In this document: positions 10,440 to 17,494 of the stretch, one piece after another
Layout of the letters: the number at the start of each line of letters is the position of its first letter
Position numbering within the stretch: position 1 is the first letter of the stretch
NCBI GenBank assembly: GCA_018400815.1
Contig: JAGYLS010000034.1
Location: 1-17,906 of the forward strand
Length of the DNA: 17,906 bases
DNA from: Candidatus Oleincola secundus
GTDB lineage: Bacteria > Atribacterota > Phoenicimicrobiia > Phoenicimicrobiales > Stramentimicrobiaceae
Direction: 5' to 3'
The notes under the pieces: generated by a model
What the model saw: the letters and a program-made list of their open reading frames with translations, nothing else
The model's database searches: none
Told to the model about the DNA's origin: nothing
Position numbers and translations under genes: made by a program

Positions 10440-11909
10440 ATGAGAATTTCACCTTTTCAAATGTACGAAAATGATGATATTGCAGGTCTGGTAACTAAAA
10501 CACACTTGGGATATCGTTATGGTATAGAGCCACAGAAGGCTTCTAAAACTGCTACTATGATTCACCAAGCTAATTCTGGTGCTACTGTAGCTGCTTATTT
10601 AAATCAGTTCCCTATTTTGGAACTTGAATCTGATGATGACTTTACTTGGGACTTGATTGGTAATGGTAAGAAGAATATTCCTCTTGTCAAAGCTAGTCTT
10701 AGTTCTGGAGGTAGTGCTGTAAGTGTTACCGATAAAGTAGGTAAAAACTTTACAGAATTTTATCTTACATTCCCTGAAGCTTACTTTACTGATGTAAATC
10801 AGATTGTAGGTGAACGTAACGAAGTATATCCTATTCTTATCTTAGATGAACCTAAAGCTGTAGGAAGTTATTGGGAATACAGATGTCGTCTTAATACTGG
10901 TGATACTAACCTGTTTATTCCTTACGATGAGGTACTTGCAGGAAAAAGATTTAGTAAAGACTTCTCACCTGTTGAAGATACTTTATCTAAAAAGGGTGGT
11001 GGAGTACATTACAACTTCCCATTCAAAATGATGAATCATTTTACTATGATTCGTATGGAAGATACAGTTCCTGGTAACATGATTAAAAGACCAGTTAAAT
11101 TTAGCTGGAAAGGTAATGATGGTAGAATTATGACTACTTGGATGGACTATAGAACATATCAGTTTGAAATGCAATATCAGGATGAAGTTGCTAAAATGAT
11201 TATGTATTCTACATCTAATAAATCTGATGATGGTGGATTTAAAATTAAAGGAAAATCTGGATACTCTATTAAAATGGGTGCTGGTATTAAGCAGCAGATG
11301 GAAGCTTCTAACTTCTATGCTTATTCAGACTTTAATATTAAGAAGTTTACTGAAATGTTGCTTGACCTTACTGTAGGTAAGATTGTAATGGGACAACGTG
11401 AAGTTACTATTTCTACAGGTGAGTGGGGTATGTATCAGTTTAGTGAAGCTCTTGAGTATCACTCAACTCTTTATACTCCTGCAAGAGATAACTTTAGAAT
11501 TTATGCCAAAGGTGGAAACACAATGGGCTTCAGAGGCCAATTCCTTGAGTTTATTGGACCTAATGGTATTAAAGTAAATGTTATCCATGATGCACTTAAA
11601 GATGACTTTGAACGTAATAAGATTAGAATGCCTGGTAAACAAGGTCTTGCAGAATCTTATGTATATGATATTCTTAACATGGGTACTTCAGATGGTAAAC
11701 CTAATGTTCAGAGAGTATATCTTAAAGGTGGTGGTGATATTAGAGGATTTATGCCAGGTCTTAGAGACCCATTTACTCCTGACAATAAACAAACCAGAAT
11801 TATGTCAACAGCTGTAGATGGATGGACAGAGCATAGAGCCTTTACTGGTGGTGCTATTGTTTATGATCCTACTAGAACTGCTACATACAAACCTAATGTA
11901 TTACAGTAA
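10440..11909 (+). CDS. Major capsid protein (crAss-like)
   Basis: 489 aa in the expected position. GLVTKTHLG, DDFTWDLIG, FSKDFSPVEDTLS, STGEWGMYQF, FLEFIGPNGIKV and GLRDPFTP resemble crAss-like capsid proteins. Confidence 0.88.
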   Translation: MRISPFQMYENDDIAGLVTKTHLGYRYGIEPQKASKTATMIHQANSGATVAAYLNQFPILELESDDDFTWDLIGNGKKNIPLVKASLSSGGSAVSVTDKVGKNFTEFYLTFPEAYFTDVNQIVGERNEVYPILILDEPKAVGSYWEYRCRLNTGDTNLFIPYDEVLAGKRFSKDFSPVEDTLSKKGGGVHYNFPFKMMNHFTMIRMEDTVPGNMIKRPVKFSWKGNDGRIMTTWMDYRTYQFEMQYQDEVAKMIMYSTSNKSDDGGFKIKGKSGYSIKMGAGIKQQMEASNFYAYSDFNIKKFTEMLLDLTVGKIVMGQREVTISTGEWGMYQFSEALEYHSTLYTPARDNFRIYAKGGNTMGFRGQFLEFIGPNGIKVNVIHDALKDDFERNKIRMPGKQGLAESYVYDILNMGTSDGKPNVQRVYLKGGGDIRGFMPGLRDPFTPDNKQTRIMSTAVDGWTEHRAFTGGAIVYDPTRTATYKPNVLQ

Positions 11910-11974: not shown

Positions 11975-12880
11975 ATGAGTGATTTTAAATTACCAAATAG
12001 AAAGGTTTTGGTTAAACCAATAATTAGAGAAGGTAAGTGGCTTGGAAAAGGGCACAGTGGTAACTTTATGTATGATAATACTAAACTATACATTACTGTG
12101 CCTATTTCTAGGCAAACTGGTGGATTGATTGATCCTCTTACAAGAGAAGAAAGAGATTTTCTAGAGAACAGGAAATTATCTGGACTTGATTTTGTAGAAG
12201 GAGACCTTAATCCTAATAAAAAACCTAATCCTAAAACAGATGAAACACCATTTTGGTATGACTACCAATATACAATTATTAAGAATGAAAGTATAATTAA
12301 TTCAGATACAGTTCTTACTGTACTTGATTTATCAAATGCTAATGATTATATTGCGTATAAAGTGTTAATGGCTAATACAGCTTCTGGTGGAATGGTAGCT
12401 CCTTCATGGGAAGATAGATTTAATCAAGGTTCTTATAAAATTGCCTTAGTTGATTCTGAATATGAAGTAGAAGAGAAATCTTCAAGAGCTATGAGATTAG
12501 GAAAAGCTTATGCTTTCTTTAATAAGATTATGAAATCTGATTTGAAAATGTATGAACTTCTTTCAGTATATTGGCTTGAGAATAGAAGGGCTACAAAACC
12601 TTCTAAAGATTCATCTACTAAATGGCTTATTTCTGAAATTGAATCTGTTATAGATAAAGATCTTGATAATTTCTTGAGACTTATTGAAACAGACTATGAA
12701 GAAAAGTTGATGATTCATCAAGCTATGGTTGCTGGAGCACTTACAAGAGAAGGGGCTACATTCCTTAATATGGATGGTACTCCTATTGGAAATAGTGTAC
12801 AAGAAGTAATACTGTACTTTAAAGATGAGAGACATCAAGAAGATAAACTAAAACTGCTTGCTTTAATAGATAAAGGATAA
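11975..12880 (+). CDS. Conserved crAss-like protein encoded directly after the major capsid gene (function unknown)
   Basis: 301 aa with LPNRKVLVKPI, PLTREE, PFW, LDLSNANDYIAYKVL and PIG. The call rests on synteny with the crAss-like capsid module. Confidence 0.7.
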   Translation: MSDFKLPNRKVLVKPIIREGKWLGKGHSGNFMYDNTKLYITVPISRQTGGLIDPLTREERDFLENRKLSGLDFVEGDLNPNKKPNPKTDETPFWYDYQYTIIKNESIINSDTVLTVLDLSNANDYIAYKVLMANTASGGMVAPSWEDRFNQGSYKIALVDSEYEVEEKSSRAMRLGKAYAFFNKIMKSDLKMYELLSVYWLENRRATKPSKDSSTKWLISEIESVIDKDLDNFLRLIETDYEEKLMIHQAMVAGALTREGATFLNMDGTPIGNSVQEVILYFKDERHQEDKLKLLALIDKG

Positions 12881-13503
12881 TGACAGCATTAGAAATGAAG
12901 GAAGAATTCTTAACCAGATATGATGCAGCTACTTCGTTAGCTGCACCTGGTTGGGAAGATTCAGAGATAAGTAAATTTCTTAATATTGCTCAATTAGAAA
13001 TTGTAAGAGAGTTATGGATGAATAAATCTTTTGAACTCATATATAATCTTGTTGATGAAGATATGACCAGTGATATATATTCAGATAACTATATTACAGT
13101 TTTATATAAAAGAGCTTTACCTGAAGATTTCTTATACTATATCAAATCTACTTCTGTTATATTTTTATCACCTAATCCAAGTTCTTTTGCTATAGAAAAT
13201 GAAAATATAAGTAAAGCTGTTTCAAGACAATTCATAGCAGATGCTACTAATAGAACCATCTTTAGAAATCCTAAAGCTTATATAAGTGGTACAGAAAGTT
13301 CTGGAACTTTGAATGTTATATATTCCTCTATACAAGAGCCTAGTGCAATATCTATAGAATATGTAAGAAAACCTATAGAAATTGATATTGATAATAGTAC
13401 TGATACAGATTTAAATATAGACTTACATGATTTAGTTGTAAATAAAGCTGTTAAAGTAGCTTTAGAATCAATTATGCAATCTAAAGTACAACAACAAGGA
13501 TAA
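12880..13503 (+). CDS. Tail ring/adaptor-like protein, paralog 1
   Basis: MTALEM..F, EISKFLNIAQ, LPEDFL, IFRNPK, YVRKPIEID and LHDLVVNKAV recur in the following ORFs. TAATG coupling to the upstream gene. Confidence 0.75.
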   Translation: MTALEMKEEFLTRYDAATSLAAPGWEDSEISKFLNIAQLEIVRELWMNKSFELIYNLVDEDMTSDIYSDNYITVLYKRALPEDFLYYIKSTSVIFLSPNPSSFAIENENISKAVSRQFIADATNRTIFRNPKAYISGTESSGTLNVIYSSIQEPSAISIEYVRKPIEIDIDNSTDTDLNIDLHDLVVNKAVKVALESIMQSKVQQQG

Positions 13504-13514
13504 AATAAATTGAT

Positions 13515-14165
13515 ATGAATTATAGACAAATTCAAACAATATTTCAAGATAAATATGAGACTGGTCTTAAAAATGCTGGTCTTGAAATGTATAAACTCCC
13601 TTCAGAAGTAATATTCAATTATATTCATGAGGCTGAGATTGAGGTTGCAGATGAATTAGCTAGAAACAGGCAGTATAATTATCTTAAAAATTTAATTACT
13701 ACTACAGAAAGAATAGAGTTTTATAACTCTCCTGAAGCAACAAATCTATCTTATTTTCTTCAACCTAATGATTTTTTATCATATGTCAGGTCAGTAACTA
13801 AAGGTACTTTCAGAAATATGACTTCTAGTGGTGTAGAAGGTCTTGTATCTAATGAATATATTGAACCTCATCAGGCAGGAATGTTTTACAACACCCCTTT
13901 TAATTCTGTACCAATATTTAGAAATCCTAAAATATTTTTACAGTCTATAAACTCTGCTGATCCTAAAAAGTTTTATATAGTTATGCCTAGTGCAAGTACA
14001 CTTACAAGAGTAGATATTACATATGTAAGAGTACCTGAATATCCTACTAATGATGGAGAAAGCCTTATTGATGAGGCTTATACAAATAAAATGATTGAAC
14101 TTGCTGTACAGAAAGCTCTTAGATATGTAGTTGCTGGAGGTGCACAAAAAGAACAGGAGCAATAA
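13515..14165 (+). CDS. Tail ring/adaptor-like protein, paralog 2
   Basis: EVIFNYIHEAE, QPNDFL, IFRNPK, YVRVP and KMIELAVQKAL align by eye with paralog 1. Confidence 0.72.
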   Translation: MNYRQIQTIFQDKYETGLKNAGLEMYKLPSEVIFNYIHEAEIEVADELARNRQYNYLKNLITTTERIEFYNSPEATNLSYFLQPNDFLSYVRSVTKGTFRNMTSSGVEGLVSNEYIEPHQAGMFYNTPFNSVPIFRNPKIFLQSINSADPKKFYIVMPSASTLTRVDITYVRVPEYPTNDGESLIDEAYTNKMIELAVQKALRYVVAGGAQKEQEQ

Positions 14166-14168
14166 AAT

Positions 14169-14918
14169 ATGACTACTTCTGAAATGTTATATAGATTTAA
14201 TGAGATTAATGATGCTGTATCTAAACTTCATGGACTTGAAGTAAGAGATGTAGATACTGAAACTATATTACATTATCTTAATATTGCTCAAAATAAACTT
14301 TTTAGAGAAAGATATCTTTCTGAAGGAGTAAATTCTACAGTTAAAATATCTAAACTTGCAGATGAATTAGGTTCTTTACTTACTACAGAAACAGCTACTA
14401 TAGAAGGAGATTCAACAGTATATCCTAAAGGAAAGATTTTACAACTTCCTGAAGATTGTGCTCTTCCTATAAAAATATCTGTTACAGGTGTACATCAAAT
14501 GCTAGGAGCAACTCCAGGAATTTTTACTGCTGATATTACAGATTTTTCAGAAATTAATAAATATATCACTAATAATTTCAATGCACCTATAATTCTTAGA
14601 CCTAAATATGTAGTATCTTATGGAGGTACAGAAATAGATTTTCAATCAGAAGAGGTTTCTCTTATATTTGTATGGTCAGATACTGTAGATATACAAACTA
14701 CTGAAACAGATGATTATAAAATTACATTTGCTTGGTCAGATCTTGTTAATGTACAAAGTGATGAAGTTGAGAAATTTACAATTACTTTTGAATGGTCAGA
14801 TTTAGTACTTGTACAAACAGATGAAATAGCTTCATTTGAAATAGAGTGGTCAGATTTAATTCCTGTACAAGTAATTACATATGAATCATTTACAACAGAA
14901 TCTTCTTCGGAAGCCTAA
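14169..14918 (+). CDS. Tail ring-like paralog 3, N-terminal part (about 153 aa) fused to an acidic WSD-repeat tail
   Basis: MTTSEM..F, ETILHYLNIAQ, LPEDC and ILRPK match the paralogs. The YxxxP...LHEE..AV C-terminus is absent and replaced by four repeats. Confidence 0.75.
   Translation: MTTSEMLYRFNEINDAVSKLHGLEVRDVDTETILHYLNIAQNKLFRERYLSEGVNSTVKISKLADELGSLLTTETATIEGDSTVYPKGKILQLPEDCALPIKISVTGVHQMLGATPGIFTADITDFSEINKYITNNFNAPIILRPKYVVSYGGTEIDFQSEEVSLIFVWSDTVDIQTTETDDYKITFAWSDLVNVQSDEVEKFTITFEWSDLVLVQTDEIASFEIEWSDLIPVQVITYESFTTESSSEA
14643..14870 (+). repeat. Four imperfect coding tandem repeats (60, 60 and 54 nt spacing) with invariant TGGTCAGAT (W-S-D)
   Basis: TGGTCAGAT starts at 14673, 14733, 14793 and 14847. 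Peptide units: LIFVWSDTVDIQ, ITFAWSDLVNVQ, ITFEWSDLVLVQ, FEIEWSDLIPVQ. Confidence 0.9.
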
Positions 14919-14944
14919 TTAACTTTAATAAATAAAATAAAATT

Positions 14945-15256
14945 ATGCCAACATATAGTTATAAAGGAATTGGTAGAAATAAAACACTTGTAATAAAATC
15001 AGTATCTTCTGCTGGTGTGGAAAGTACTTTAGAAACCTATGATTTCTTAGCATCATTTACTTGGGCAGGAGTAACATATCCTTTACTTGCTACAGATACA
15101 GCACTAGCTCAGCTATCTGCTGCTGATTACAATAAAAGATTAAATGCTTTTGTAGCATATGTAAAAGATGATCTAGATTCTTATCCACAATTAGCTAACT
15201 ATAATTTACTTGAAGGTGCTGTAGAAGGAACTAATACATTTGGAACTGTAGCGTAA
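14945..15256 (+). CDS. Hypothetical 103-aa protein lying between the two halves of ring paralog 3
   Basis: A-rich leader (aaataaaattATG), codon style like its neighbours, stop overlapping the next ATG (TAATG). No ring motifs. Confidence 0.8.
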   Translation: MPTYSYKGIGRNKTLVIKSVSSAGVESTLETYDFLASFTWAGVTYPLLATDTALAQLSAADYNKRLNAFVAYVKDDLDSYPQLANYNLLEGAVEGTNTFGTVA

Positions 15257-15453
15257 TGAATATACTATTATTAATTGATAAATATACTACATCTGTAACT
15301 AATACAACAGCCACTTATTTAAAGAATCCATCACAGATTGATTTAAATAATGACTGTAAGCTTGCTACTCAATTACATGAGGAGCTTATTAGACTTGCTG
15401 TAGATATGTATCATGCAGATAAATTTAAATTAAATTCAGGAAAAAATGACTAA
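15256..15453 (+). CDS. Tail ring-like paralog 3, C-terminal part (65 aa)
   Basis: YLKNPSQIDL...LATQLHEELIRLAV corresponds to YVRKPIEIDI...LNIDLHDLVVNKAV (paralog 1) and HIKIPTKINL...INEEFHEEVVDFAI (paralog 4). Overlaps both neighbours. Confidence 0.78.
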   Translation: MNILLLIDKYTTSVTNTTATYLKNPSQIDLNNDCKLATQLHEELIRLAVDMYHADKFKLNSGKND

Positions 15454-16129
15454 TCTTGAGCTTCAGTATAGATTTACACAAAAACTTGGAGATTCTATTA
15501 ATTTCCAGTATGATATACCTACTATAGATATTGAAAGATATCTTAATGTGGGATATAATGAATTTATAGATTTTTGGTATAAACAATATGACCAATCTGA
15601 AGCTTCTAAAAAAAGGTTAAACTCACTTACTAAAAGAACTACAATAGCTTTAAGTACTGCTACAGAATCTAGTAATGAATATATTATTAATCCTAATAAT
15701 TTCAAAATATATTCAATAACTTTACCAAGTGACTGTTTATATGTACTTAGAGAAAAGGTAGATTTATACAATAGTGTATCAGAAATTTATACTACAATAG
15801 CCGTTAAACCTATAGGACTTGATTATATGAATAAACATATAGATAATTCCTTTAAACAGCCTTATTCTAAGTTATATTGGAGAATTGATGTTGCTGGTAA
15901 ACATGAACTTATACTTCCAACATCTATAGATATATCTACTTCCAATTATATTTTAGAACATATAAAAATACCTACAAAAATAAATCTTCTTACAGGTACT
16001 CCTGTAACAGATAAAATAGAAATTAATGAAGAATTTCATGAAGAAGTTGTAGATTTTGCAATCAGAAAATTTCTAAATGATTATTCATTAGTAAATCAAA
16101 ATAATAATTCAAACAAAAATTCAGAATAA
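15446..16129 (+). CDS. Tail ring/adaptor-like protein, paralog 4
   Basis: MTNLEL.YRF, DIERYLNVGY, LPSDCL, NSFKQP, HIKIPTKINL and FHEEVVDFAI. Confidence 0.75.
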   Translation: MTNLELQYRFTQKLGDSINFQYDIPTIDIERYLNVGYNEFIDFWYKQYDQSEASKKRLNSLTKRTTIALSTATESSNEYIINPNNFKIYSITLPSDCLYVLREKVDLYNSVSEIYTTIAVKPIGLDYMNKHIDNSFKQPYSKLYWRIDVAGKHELILPTSIDISTSNYILEHIKIPTKINLLTGTPVTDKIEINEEFHEEVVDFAIRKFLNDYSLVNQNNNSNKNSE

Positions 16130-16162: not shown

Positions 16163-17494
16163 ATGCAAAAAGAACGTAATATTGGAGAAATCCTAATTGT
16201 TAATGATGTGGCTGCTACCGCTGGAATGGAAACTAACAATGTTGATGGTTATATCAGTTCAATGAATACTGGTGAAGCAGTTGTTGTTTCTCCTGCTGGG
16301 GTTGTAGTAGATGCTACAGGAACACTTCCTGCACAGTTTAAAATTGGAACCAAACTTACTGATGGTACAATACAGTGGACAGATCTTATTGATGCTGCTT
16401 CCATTAAGTCTATCTATACTAAAAGATATGCTGCTGCTACTCTTCAGAAAGATTATATTGGATATAATGGTACAAGTGGAGACATTGATGTAATTAATAG
16501 TAATATGTATTACATTAGGCTTTATATTCAGGATAATGATGGTTACACATTTAATTCACAGAAAGTTAAATGGGGAGTTTATACATCTGATGCTTCAGCA
16601 ACTCAAGCAGAAATTGCTTATGGGCTTACTGCAAGTTTGATTGGTAATCTTTCACGTGAACCTGAGAAACTTAAATCAGGTATTGATGTTATCTCTGTAA
16701 ATAGAGTAAACTCAGGAACTTCTACTGCTACTAGTGGTGGTGCGGTTACTGTAACTAAAGGTTCTAAATATGTAAGTATTGCTGGAACTGGTGCTGATGC
16801 AGGTAAATATAATGGAGATGCAGCTACTATTGTAGCTGGTGATTACATTAGATTTGGACATGCTACTACTACTACATATCCTGTTTATAAAGTAGCTAGA
16901 GTTGTATCTGGTGGTGGAGCTACTACTATGGTTGTAGAACTTGACATTGCATATCAGGGAACTTCTGAAGCAATTGCTGCTGCTAATGTGGGTGTAGTAC
17001 CTATTGCAGATATTGGAGATTTTGGAATTGTACTTTCTGGTACAGCTTATTCCTATGATCCTCCTAAATTTGGATATATGTTACCTAGATGGGAAACTAC
17101 TATTCAAGACTTTGGTGATACTACTGTAACTAATAGTGTATCTACAGATGAAGGTAATGGTGATTGGAGATGGGTTAAAGAGCTTGAGCAACAGTTCCTT
17201 GGAAATGAAGGTAACTATTACAGAGCACAAGTACCTTCACCAACATTCAGAAGTGAAGTAACTACTAGTGGTCAATATGCAGTTATTGTAATTGAGCATG
17301 AAGATGTAATGACTGGTAATCTTGGTAATACTGAAAAATCTCTTAAACAGACATATATTGCTTGTGTAAAAGGAGATGGAACTACTTACTCTGATGCTAA
17401 TACAGGTCTTGGAACTACTCTTAATGCTTATCTTACTGCTTATAGTGGTATTAAGTCTAATGGAGTAACAATTGCTACTGAGATTGATGCTTAA
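16163..17494 (+). CDS. Virion structural protein, probably the auxiliary capsid protein of crAss-like phages
   Basis: 443 aa, G/T/A/V-rich and beta-type. It follows the ring genes as the auxiliary capsid gene does in phiCrAss001. C-terminal GNG...VKELE.Q..GNEG and YAVIVIEH. Confidence 0.55.
   Translation: MQKERNIGEILIVNDVAATAGMETNNVDGYISSMNTGEAVVVSPAGVVVDATGTLPAQFKIGTKLTDGTIQWTDLIDAASIKSIYTKRYAAATLQKDYIGYNGTSGDIDVINSNMYYIRLYIQDNDGYTFNSQKVKWGVYTSDASATQAEIAYGLTASLIGNLSREPEKLKSGIDVISVNRVNSGTSTATSGGAVTVTKGSKYVSIAGTGADAGKYNGDAATIVAGDYIRFGHATTTTYPVYKVARVVSGGGATTMVVELDIAYQGTSEAIAAANVGVVPIADIGDFGIVLSGTAYSYDPPKFGYMLPRWETTIQDFGDTTVTNSVSTDEGNGDWRWVKELEQQFLGNEGNYYRAQVPSPTFRSEVTTSGQYAVIVIEHEDVMTGNLGNTEKSLKQTYIACVKGDGTTYSDANTGLGTTLNAYLTAYSGIKSNGVTIATEIDA

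What the first reader, a model, noticed from the sequence alone, without database searches (positions are those of the whole stretch)
14169..15453. Naturally split tail-ring gene with a two-part module between its halves
Seen: paralog 3 follows the ring pattern to ILRPKYVVSYGG (about 14627), diverges into four WSD repeats and stops at 14918. A 103-aa gene follows. The missing ring C-terminus then appears as its own 65-aa ORF (MNILLLIDKY...YLKNPSQIDL...LHEELIRLAV). 153+65 gives about 218 aa, matching the intact paralogs (207, 216, 227 aa). The break falls in the loop that varies among them after the FRNPK-like motif. The three ORFs are in three different frames, uninterrupted and tightly coupled (TAATG at 15254-15258, 8-nt overlap at 15446-15453), which argues against decay or a simple indel error. 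Inference: the ring subunit assembles from two polypeptides, and the split creates a free C-terminus at a surface loop to display the repeat arm. No transposase, intein or ribozyme is evident. I know of no description of this arrangement.
Basis: partly seen in the sequence, partly recalled or inferred. Interest (0 to 1): 0.85.

Follow-up and report, generated by a model that had tools for sequence, protein, structure and literature searches.

The report
Plug-in repeat arm splits tail ring
A crAss-like phage builds one tail-ring subunit from two separate genes because a portable cassette (a repeat arm plus a small partner protein, also bolted onto unrelated tail proteins of other phages) has landed in the middle of the gene, probably to hang a beaded fibre on the tail.

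Summary
The split is real and conserved. In this crAss-like phage the third gp34/gp35-type ring paralog is encoded as an N-part (153 aa) plus an acidic arm of four FxW repeats, a 103-aa gene, and a separate 65-aa C-part. The parts match non-overlapping columns of a profile of intact rings, and the break lies in a variable loop. The same three-gene layout occurs in a 91%-identical contig and in a distant phage (ring about 41% identical, 17 arm tryptophans). All parts have dN/dS 0.16-0.35, and relatives' RNA-library contigs cross both junctions unspliced. The new result is that the insert is a portable cassette: homologues of the 103-aa gene sit directly behind a C-terminal FxW-repeat tail in 15 of 15 unrelated sipho- and myophage-like loci, on four other host proteins. 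Best reading: the halves reassemble non-covalently, and the freed C-terminus displays a rope on which copies of the partner bind, working like the rope-and-bead fibres of GP4, Bas63 and A1002 but with no detected homology to them. Neither binding was modelled or shown.

The parts
14169..14627 (+). Ring N-part, residues 1-153 of the 249-aa ORF (gp34/gp35-type ring, up to the variable loop)
   Evidence: Profile columns 1-156 of intact rings; intact syntenic orthologues hit it; dN/dS 0.29 vs L001
14628..14918 (+). Acidic C-terminal arm with four FxW(SD) repeats, 18-20 aa apart; first half of the cassette (putative rope)
   Evidence: dN/dS 0.27; 4-17 arm tryptophans in 11 split-type proteins; same motif C-terminal on four other host proteins
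14919..14944 (+). 26-nt A/T-rich spacer before the partner start
   Evidence: similar A-rich leader in L070 and before the capsid and auxiliary capsid genes
14945..15256 (+). 103-aa partner gene, second half of the cassette (putative bead or adaptor); family of no named kind
   Evidence: 22 homologues; hhalign 99.5% to the sipho/myo subgroup; model pLDDT 73.7, four strands then two helices; dN/dS 0.35
15256..15453 (+). Ring C-part, 65 aa, own ATG
   Evidence: Profile columns 160-228; 48% identical to the L070 C-part; 20 of 20 cluster members are stand-alone 64-65-aa proteins; dN/dS 0.16
12880..13503 (+). Intact ring paralog 1 (context)
   Evidence: PF24175 above cut-off, PF25710 just below
13515..14165 (+). 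Intact ring paralog 2 (context)
   Evidence: Paralog of ring 1, E about 4e-10
15446..16129 (+). Intact ring paralog 4 (context)
   Evidence: PF25710 above cut-off
10440..11909 (+). Crassvirus major capsid protein (context)
   Evidence: PF23898 E 6e-120
16163..17494 (+). Crassvirus auxiliary capsid protein (context)
   Evidence: PF25650 E 5e-9

Best explanation
A portable two-part cassette (C-terminal FxW-repeat tail + about 103-aa partner gene) inserted into a loop of a crass-like ring gene. Because the tail must end in a free C-terminus, the ring gene became two genes, and the downstream part gained its own start. SHOWN: the layout, its conservation, complementarity of the halves in sequence, selection on all parts, cassette linkage on five unrelated hosts. 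INFERRED: both ring parts are translated separately and co-fold non-covalently into one ring subunit (about 0.85); the arm is an extended rope and each repeat binds the partner, alone or as a dimer, by beta-strand addition with F/W buried, so repeat number sets fibre length (about 0.65); the resulting fibres, up to 12 per ring if it is dodecameric like gp34/gp35, act as whiskers for reversible host-surface attachment or as docking arms (about 0.45).
For: Three-gene layout read directly in three genomes: window, L001, L070. The six best phmmer hits of the N-part among 26 are split-type (one, P0012, a fragment whose cluster mate P0037 is split-type), down to 37% identity. The C-part starts Met-Asn at the same column in L070 and the window; in L070 an in-frame TAA lies two codons before its ATG and after the partner's stop, which excludes fusion to the partner. 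15 of 15 loci found with the partner subgroup have an FxW-repeat C-terminus on the gene 8-75 nt upstream; 20 of 585 ORFs of 200 aa or more in the loci then held have such a C-terminus, and all 20 precede a partner (4 of the 20 are one contig). Hosts: a 750-810-aa protein after a tape measure gene (11 loci), a 545-aa protein (L082), a protein after a baseplate-wedge-like gene (L084, L086), a LysM protein (L080). In the 750-810-aa family 30 of 38 loci are complete: 11 have both parts, 19 neither, 0 one only. Cys at W+5 in most repeats goes with 2-4 Cys in the partner in 15 of 15 sipho/myo loci; neither has Cys in 3 of 3 crass loci. Repeat number varies freely, 4 to 17. Precedents: PMC13730344, PMC12609058.
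Against: The partner model matches no known bead: best Z 4.2 and 3.2 among 48,161 chains, no Foldseek hit at E<=0.001, and its strands-then-helices order differs from the Bas63 whisker description. Arm and partner are both net acidic (arm D+E 15-23%, K+R 1-6%; window partner 7 K+R vs 10 D+E). The linkage counts are not independent: the 11 positive sipho-type loci are close kin and were the query, and the Cys pattern rests on two groups. No protein, virion or host data exist. Only 3 genomes show the full crass layout directly; no partner was matched to P0015.
Confidence: 0.6

Rival explanations
1. The split and reassembly are as above, but the partner is not a repeated bead. It is a single cap, adaptor or assembly chaperone, and the repeats fold on themselves, zip with neighbouring arms, or dock other fibre proteins.
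For: The last repeat often differs from the others. No bead fold match. In several sipho/myo loci the partner is followed by a 545-613-aa gene, one with a sub-threshold Phage_fiber_2 hit, which could be the real appendage. Both parts are acidic.
Against: Spacers between repeats vary in length and sequence (13-24 aa) while the short F/W core is kept, which suits independent binding sites more than a regular solenoid (inference). The partner has an A-rich leader like the high-copy capsid genes (weak).
Confidence: 0.27
2. The 628-nt insert is removed at the RNA or translation level (an unrecognised intron, or ribosome bypass), so an intact ring is made besides the arm-bearing form.
For: Removing the insert would give a loop of the usual short length (conserved Pro to conserved Asp 15-16 residues; 14-15 in the shortest intact rings, counted by eye). 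A G precedes the Asn codon of the C-part in the window, L001 and L070. Crass-like phages are rich in group I introns (PMC7886860, passages). Synonymous divergence from L001 is lower in the split gene (dS 0.12-0.23) than in rings 1, 2 and 4 (0.39-0.51).
Against: No Rfam match of note in 14000-15700 (best E 0.48) or L070 (best E 0.92). The insert is almost all protein-coding under selection, and its length runs from 628 to about 1,410 nt. The U at 14627 is A in L001. Contigs of three RNA libraries from three studies cross both junctions, with no joints (contigs drop rare forms and may hold DNA). No stop follows a take-off codon, and the same cassette elsewhere is a plain C-terminal fusion.
Confidence: 0.06
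3. The C-part does not rejoin its own N-part: the N-part plus arm works as a truncated accessory protein, and the C-part is vestigial or used elsewhere.
For: Three intact ring paralogs remain, and many relatives have only one to three rings, so this ring could be dispensable.
Against: The C-part is as conserved as the N-part (48% vs about 41% to L070; dN/dS 0.16) and covers exactly the columns the N-part lacks.
Confidence: 0.06
4. Misassembly or recent gene decay.
For: The window carries one apparent frameshift elsewhere, in the portal gene.
Against: Same layout in L001 and L070, one X1 contig spans it, dN/dS 0.16-0.35, and 20 stand-alone C-parts are on record.
Confidence: 0.01

Closest known systems
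crAss001 ring proteins R3 (gp35) and R4/R5 (gp34), PF25710 (PMC10172136; PDB 7qoj)
   Same: Same gene order: capsid, gp33-position gene, rings, auxiliary capsid protein. The profile of intact orthologues matches gp34 (hhalign 96.9%; PDB search E 2e-6) and gp35 (81.1%; E 2.7e-5).
   Different: gp34 and gp35 are single chains, and fibres attach through separate hub proteins on R1/R2. Here one ring is two genes and carries a repeat arm at the break.
Pseudomonas podophage A1002 split nozzle gp39/gp42 with chain-like fibre (PMC13730344)
   Same: One canonical tail protein divided between two genes that complement each other; one half carries a rope of about 300 A that binds 11 small-protein dimers by beta-sheet augmentation; bead genes lie between the two halves (gp40, gp41 between gp39 and gp42 by numbering).
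   Different: Nozzle (hexamer), not adaptor-type ring; beads of 147-171 aa with no detected sequence or fold match to the 103-aa partner; rope internal and ended by an Ig-like domain, not a free C-terminal FxW tail; no evidence there of a cassette moving between unrelated hosts.
GP4 rope + Fiber-1, Bas63 collar rope + whisker dimers (PMC12609058; GP4 as cited there and in PMC13730344)
   Same: Beads-on-a-string appendage on a 12-fold neck ring, rope length setting bead number (2 vs 5 dimers), shared between a podophage and a myophage.
   Different: Rope is a separate protein or an N-terminal extension of an Ig-like collar; whisker monomer has an N-terminal helix and incomplete sandwich, unlike the partner model; no split host gene.
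Group I introns and inteins of crAss-like phages (PMC7886860)
   Same: An insert carrying ORFs interrupts a structural gene, the first ORF in frame with the upstream part.
   Different: No ribozyme, endonuclease or Hint domain detected; the insert appears to be kept, not excised.

Membership tests
Crassvirus ring protein R3/R4/R5 (gp34/gp35 type) | Position between capsid-gp33 and auxiliary capsid gene | tested here: met
Crassvirus ring protein R3/R4/R5 (gp34/gp35 type) | Sequence homology over the whole ring | tested here: met
   Indirect, through intact orthologues; the fragments alone have no Pfam hit
Crassvirus ring protein R3/R4/R5 (gp34/gp35 type) | One polypeptide holding three helices and the beta-sandwich | tested here: not met
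   Two ORFs separated by stops and another gene
Crassvirus ring protein R3/R4/R5 (gp34/gp35 type) | Forms a dodecameric ring in the tail barrel | not testable with these tools
   Needs virions
Rope-and-bead fibre (GP4, Bas63, A1002, VP1) | Extended rope with periodic binding sites on a neck or tail protein | tested here: inconclusive
   Periodic FxW repeats of variable number; extended state not modelled
Rope-and-bead fibre (GP4, Bas63, A1002, VP1) | Bead protein of the Fiber-1/whisker fold | tested here: inconclusive
   Not listed in fold searches of two models or PDB sequence searches; models moderate (pLDDT 70-74)
Rope-and-bead fibre (GP4, Bas63, A1002, VP1) | Bead dimers augment the rope strand | not tested
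Split tail protein of the A1002 kind | Two genes cover complementary parts of one fold | tested here: met
   Columns 1-156 and 160-228
Split tail protein of the A1002 kind | The two chains co-fold | not tested
Group I or II intron | Ribozyme core | tested here: not met
   insert nearly all coding
Group I or II intron | Spliced junction in RNA | tested here: inconclusive
   No joints in 3 of 3 RNA-library contig sets, which cross both junctions; contigs drop rare forms
Group I or II intron | Conserved U at the 5' site and G at the 3' end (rule recalled) | tested here: inconclusive
   G kept in 3 of 3; U at 14627 is A in L001, though a nearby U is kept
Split intein | Hint fragments and Cys/Ser/Thr at the C-extein start (rule recalled) | tested here: not met
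   No Pfam hit on the three ORFs; C-part starts Met-Asn with no intein piece
T4 gene 60-type ribosome bypass | Matched take-off and landing codons, stop right after take-off, short gap (rule recalled) | tested here: not met
   Frame stays open 96 codons past the break; gap 628 to about 1,410 nt

The most novel reading that the evidence does not exclude
A previously undescribed mobile 'plug-in fibre' cassette: an FxW-repeat tail plus a bead of a fold not yet matched, grafted independently onto at least five unrelated virion proteins of podo-, sipho- and myophage types, tunable in length by repeat number, and able to create its own attachment point by splitting an essential oligomeric ring gene that then reassembles from two chains.
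Probability: 0.5. Interest if true: 0.82.

Novelty: new variant of a known kind. Interest (0 to 1): 0.7.

Why it matters
Multiple single-chain rings are a hallmark of crassviruses; a ring built from two chains and carrying an appendage is a new way to arm that tail. The cassette gives a direct view of how tail mosaicism works below the gene level: the same tail-plus-partner unit moves between tail morphotypes and can split a host gene to gain a free terminus. It names a function to test for an unannotated family, explains small orphan ORFs that annotation would call fragments, and suggests a natural length-tunable display tag for phage structural work. The concept has a precedent in the A1002 nozzle, which lowers surprise but raises plausibility.

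Tried and rejected
Complex prediction (halves together; arm with partner) was not available, so there is no structural verdict on either contact. Pfam and PHROGs gave no hit on the three ORFs and nothing at E<0.02 on 23 partner sequences. The multicystatin hit is a summed 24-27-residue helix match, no single stretch significant: rejected. ESM Atlas gave no usable hit for two partners. Fold searches gave no clear match, which does not show a new fold. GenBank phages: no match for the 249-aa protein, P0055 or the L084 repeat tail. Genome contigs: nothing for two ring alignments. IMG/VR holds only one crass-type split contig by four queries (one search missed even that one). The partner is in 0 of 85 other genomes of the bin's phylum. 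A frameshift fusing partner to C-part is excluded in L070, and the A-run at the C-part/ring-4 overlap is broken in L001. The insert is not the gene that follows ring 4 in relatives: the partner profile hits none of L003-L069. Tree of N-parts: split forms need one change, support only 71/68, so a single origin is not ruled out and not shown. Earlier findings: four look-ups returned nothing.

Full report
CONTEXT. The window is contig C142 of a 2.0-Mb binned genome and is a crAss-like phage fragment: capsid PF23898 (E 6e-120), rings PF25710, auxiliary capsid PF25650. Gene order matches crAss001 gp32-gp33-gp34/35-gp36. The capsid is only 35-37% identical to the best named phages. The host is unknown; the partner gene is in 0 of 85 other genomes of the bin's phylum, so the bin need not be the host.

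OBSERVATION. All coordinates, the four WSD repeats, the TAATG coupling and the 8-nt overlap are as stated. A capsid query fetched 68 related loci. Among those with enough downstream DNA, L003, L007, L008, L009, L042 and L043 carry an intact 231-240-aa ring just before the ring-4 orthologue that hits both halves. A profile of 23 intact rings aligns to the N-part over columns 1-156 (99.8%) and to the C-part over columns 160-228 (99.4%), and to crAss001 gp34 (96.9%; PDB 7qoj_E, E 2e-6). The break lies in a loop whose length varies from 14 to about 24 residues between a conserved Pro and Asp (counted by eye). That it is a surface beta-turn is inferred from this variation; I had no coordinates.

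THE SPLIT IS OLD AND SELECTED. L001 (91% nt identity) has 247/103/65 aa. L070 (N-part about 41% by its close relative P0013) has 506/105/64 aa with 17 arm tryptophans; its C-part starts Met-Asn at the same column, 11 nt after the partner's stop and two codons after an in-frame TAA. Of 26 phmmer hits to the N-part, the top six are split-type with long arms and no ring end (one a fragment of such a cluster); the other 20 are 175-245 aa and keep the ring's continuation after the loop. Arms hold 4-17 tryptophans in 11 proteins. All 20 members of the two C-part clusters are stand-alone 64-65-aa proteins. Matching contig lengths tie N-parts, partners and C-parts together for further genomes (12653, 23287, 13094; N-part and partner also 32981 and 11906); this is inference, as those contigs were not read. 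dN/dS against L001: N-part 0.29, arm 0.27, partner 0.35, C-part 0.16, neighbours 0.07-0.27 (one pair, few sites). The relative frames are not conserved.

NOT SPLICING, AS FAR AS TESTED. Rfam finds nothing of note. Contigs of relatives in three RNA libraries of three studies cross both junctions, with no joints; they break in the repeats in two of the three, may contain DNA and drop rare forms, so this is moderate evidence. For the rival: removing the insert would restore a normal short loop, a G precedes the resumption point in 3 of 3 genomes, and dS is low in the split gene (0.12-0.23 against 0.39-0.51 in rings 1, 2, 4; the auxiliary capsid gene is also low at 0.22). A clean insertion into a turn, with a Met start, explains the first two equally well; the dS dip is unexplained.

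THE INSERT IS A PORTABLE CASSETTE. A partner profile found 22 proteins in two subgroups (hhalign between them 99.5%). The second subgroup gave 15 IMG/VR loci, none crass-like in layout. In 15 of 15 the gene 8-75 nt upstream ends in 2-7 FxW repeats. As control, 20 of 585 ORFs of 200 aa or more in the loci then held had such an end, and all 20 precede a partner (4 are the same contig as L001). The carriers are unrelated outside the tail (matrix): a 750-810-aa protein after a tape measure gene (11 loci), a 545-aa protein (L082), a protein following a baseplate-wedge-like gene (L084, L086) and a LysM protein (L080). The sipho and myo labels are my reading of gene context. L080 and L084 are reciprocal by eye: the tail sits on the LysM-type gene in one and on the wedge-position gene in the other. 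In the 750-810-aa family, 38 loci were fetched, 8 dropped as cut (one of them shows repeats); of 30, 11 have tail and partner, 19 neither, none one only. The 11 are close kin and supplied the query, so this is about one gain, not eleven. A Gly-Gly precedes the first repeat in 10 of these 11, in L080 and in the crass arm (read), so the cassette may begin at residue 152 rather than 154. Cys in repeats and partner appear and vanish together between the two groups (two groups only).

MECHANISM. On every other host the tail is C-terminal. Insertion into the ring loop gave it a C-terminus at the price of cutting the gene; the cut-off 65 aa were kept with their own start and are conserved as strongly as the rest, which is best explained by non-covalent reassembly (inferred). 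A short hydrophobic F/W core in acidic spacers of variable length, variable copy number and a constant small neighbour suggest a rope with one partner site per repeat (inferred). The partner model has four strands, two helices and poorly predicted ends, although the N-terminal motif is the most conserved part; those ends could order on binding (inferred). Against: no match to known beads, both parts acidic, no binding model. The cap/adaptor/chaperone rival remains at about one in four. The role in host attachment is by analogy only.

COMPARISON. It works like the A1002 split nozzle with rope and fibre dimers (PMC13730344: abstract, outline and sections 9, 11, 12 read) and the Bas63/GP4 collar rope with whiskers (PMC12609058: passages; the GP4 and VP1 papers were seen only as cited there). 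Membership in that fibre family is not established. It is a gp34/gp35-type ring by homology and position, but not a single chain (PMC10172136: passages). PMC7886860 (passages) describes crass genes fragmented by introns, inteins and recoding and allows for unknown forms of fragmentation; the passages seen mention no split ring. Seven searches (listings only, apart from the four papers named) showed no split crass ring and no FxW-tail cassette. The library lacks most subscription journals and no supplements were read, so absence from print is not proven.

VERDICT. Real, conserved and more general than first seen: a new variant of a known kind, with an unnamed portable cassette at its core. Best explanation 0.6, interest 0.7.

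Noticed in passing
window 5542-7838: The portal-position gene is in two overlapping frames (721 aa and 91 aa), whereas both pieces match one frame in L002: a frameshift near codon 655-663, error or real.
   Followed up: partly
window 7929-9095: A 388-aa ORF with no Pfam or PHROG hit lies between portal and scaffold-position genes and is absent from the 91-93% identical L002.
   Followed up: partly
window 2070-5444: The 1124-aa terminase-like ORF seems to hold an intein with a homing endonuclease (motifs recognised from memory, not scanned).
   Followed up: no
G000:C1 33790-37881: An 88.5-kb, 27% GC contig in the same bin has weak capsid (E 3e-6) and ring (E 0.04) hits: probably a second crass-like phage.
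   Followed up: no
L011 4006-4998, L014, L020, L022, L026, L059, L069: Single rings of 330-343 aa appear to carry an in-frame insertion of about 90 aa (by eye): another way of decorating a ring, without a split.
   Followed up: no
L003 7831-8289, L008 9928-10494, L021 6388-7308 and others: Many relatives have a variable 129-315-aa gene between the last ring and the auxiliary capsid gene; the window has none. Ring number runs from 1 to 5 (L008).
   Followed up: partly
L078, L079, L080, L082, L085, L087 downstream of the partner: A similar 545-613-aa gene follows the partner in both sipho- and myo-type loci, while cassette-free members of the sipho family mostly have a different 565-900-aa gene there: the cassette may replace a fibre module.
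   Followed up: partly
L080 7343-7975: The repeat tail has a sub-threshold match to DUF5874 (PF19202, E 1.6e-4, 22.4 bits against 27.1).
   Followed up: no
window 14100-14400 and 15256-15453: The split gene is closer to L001 (98% in 14100-14399; dS 0.12-0.17 in the ring parts) than its ring neighbours are (82-90%): recombination or a nucleotide-level constraint.
   Followed up: partly
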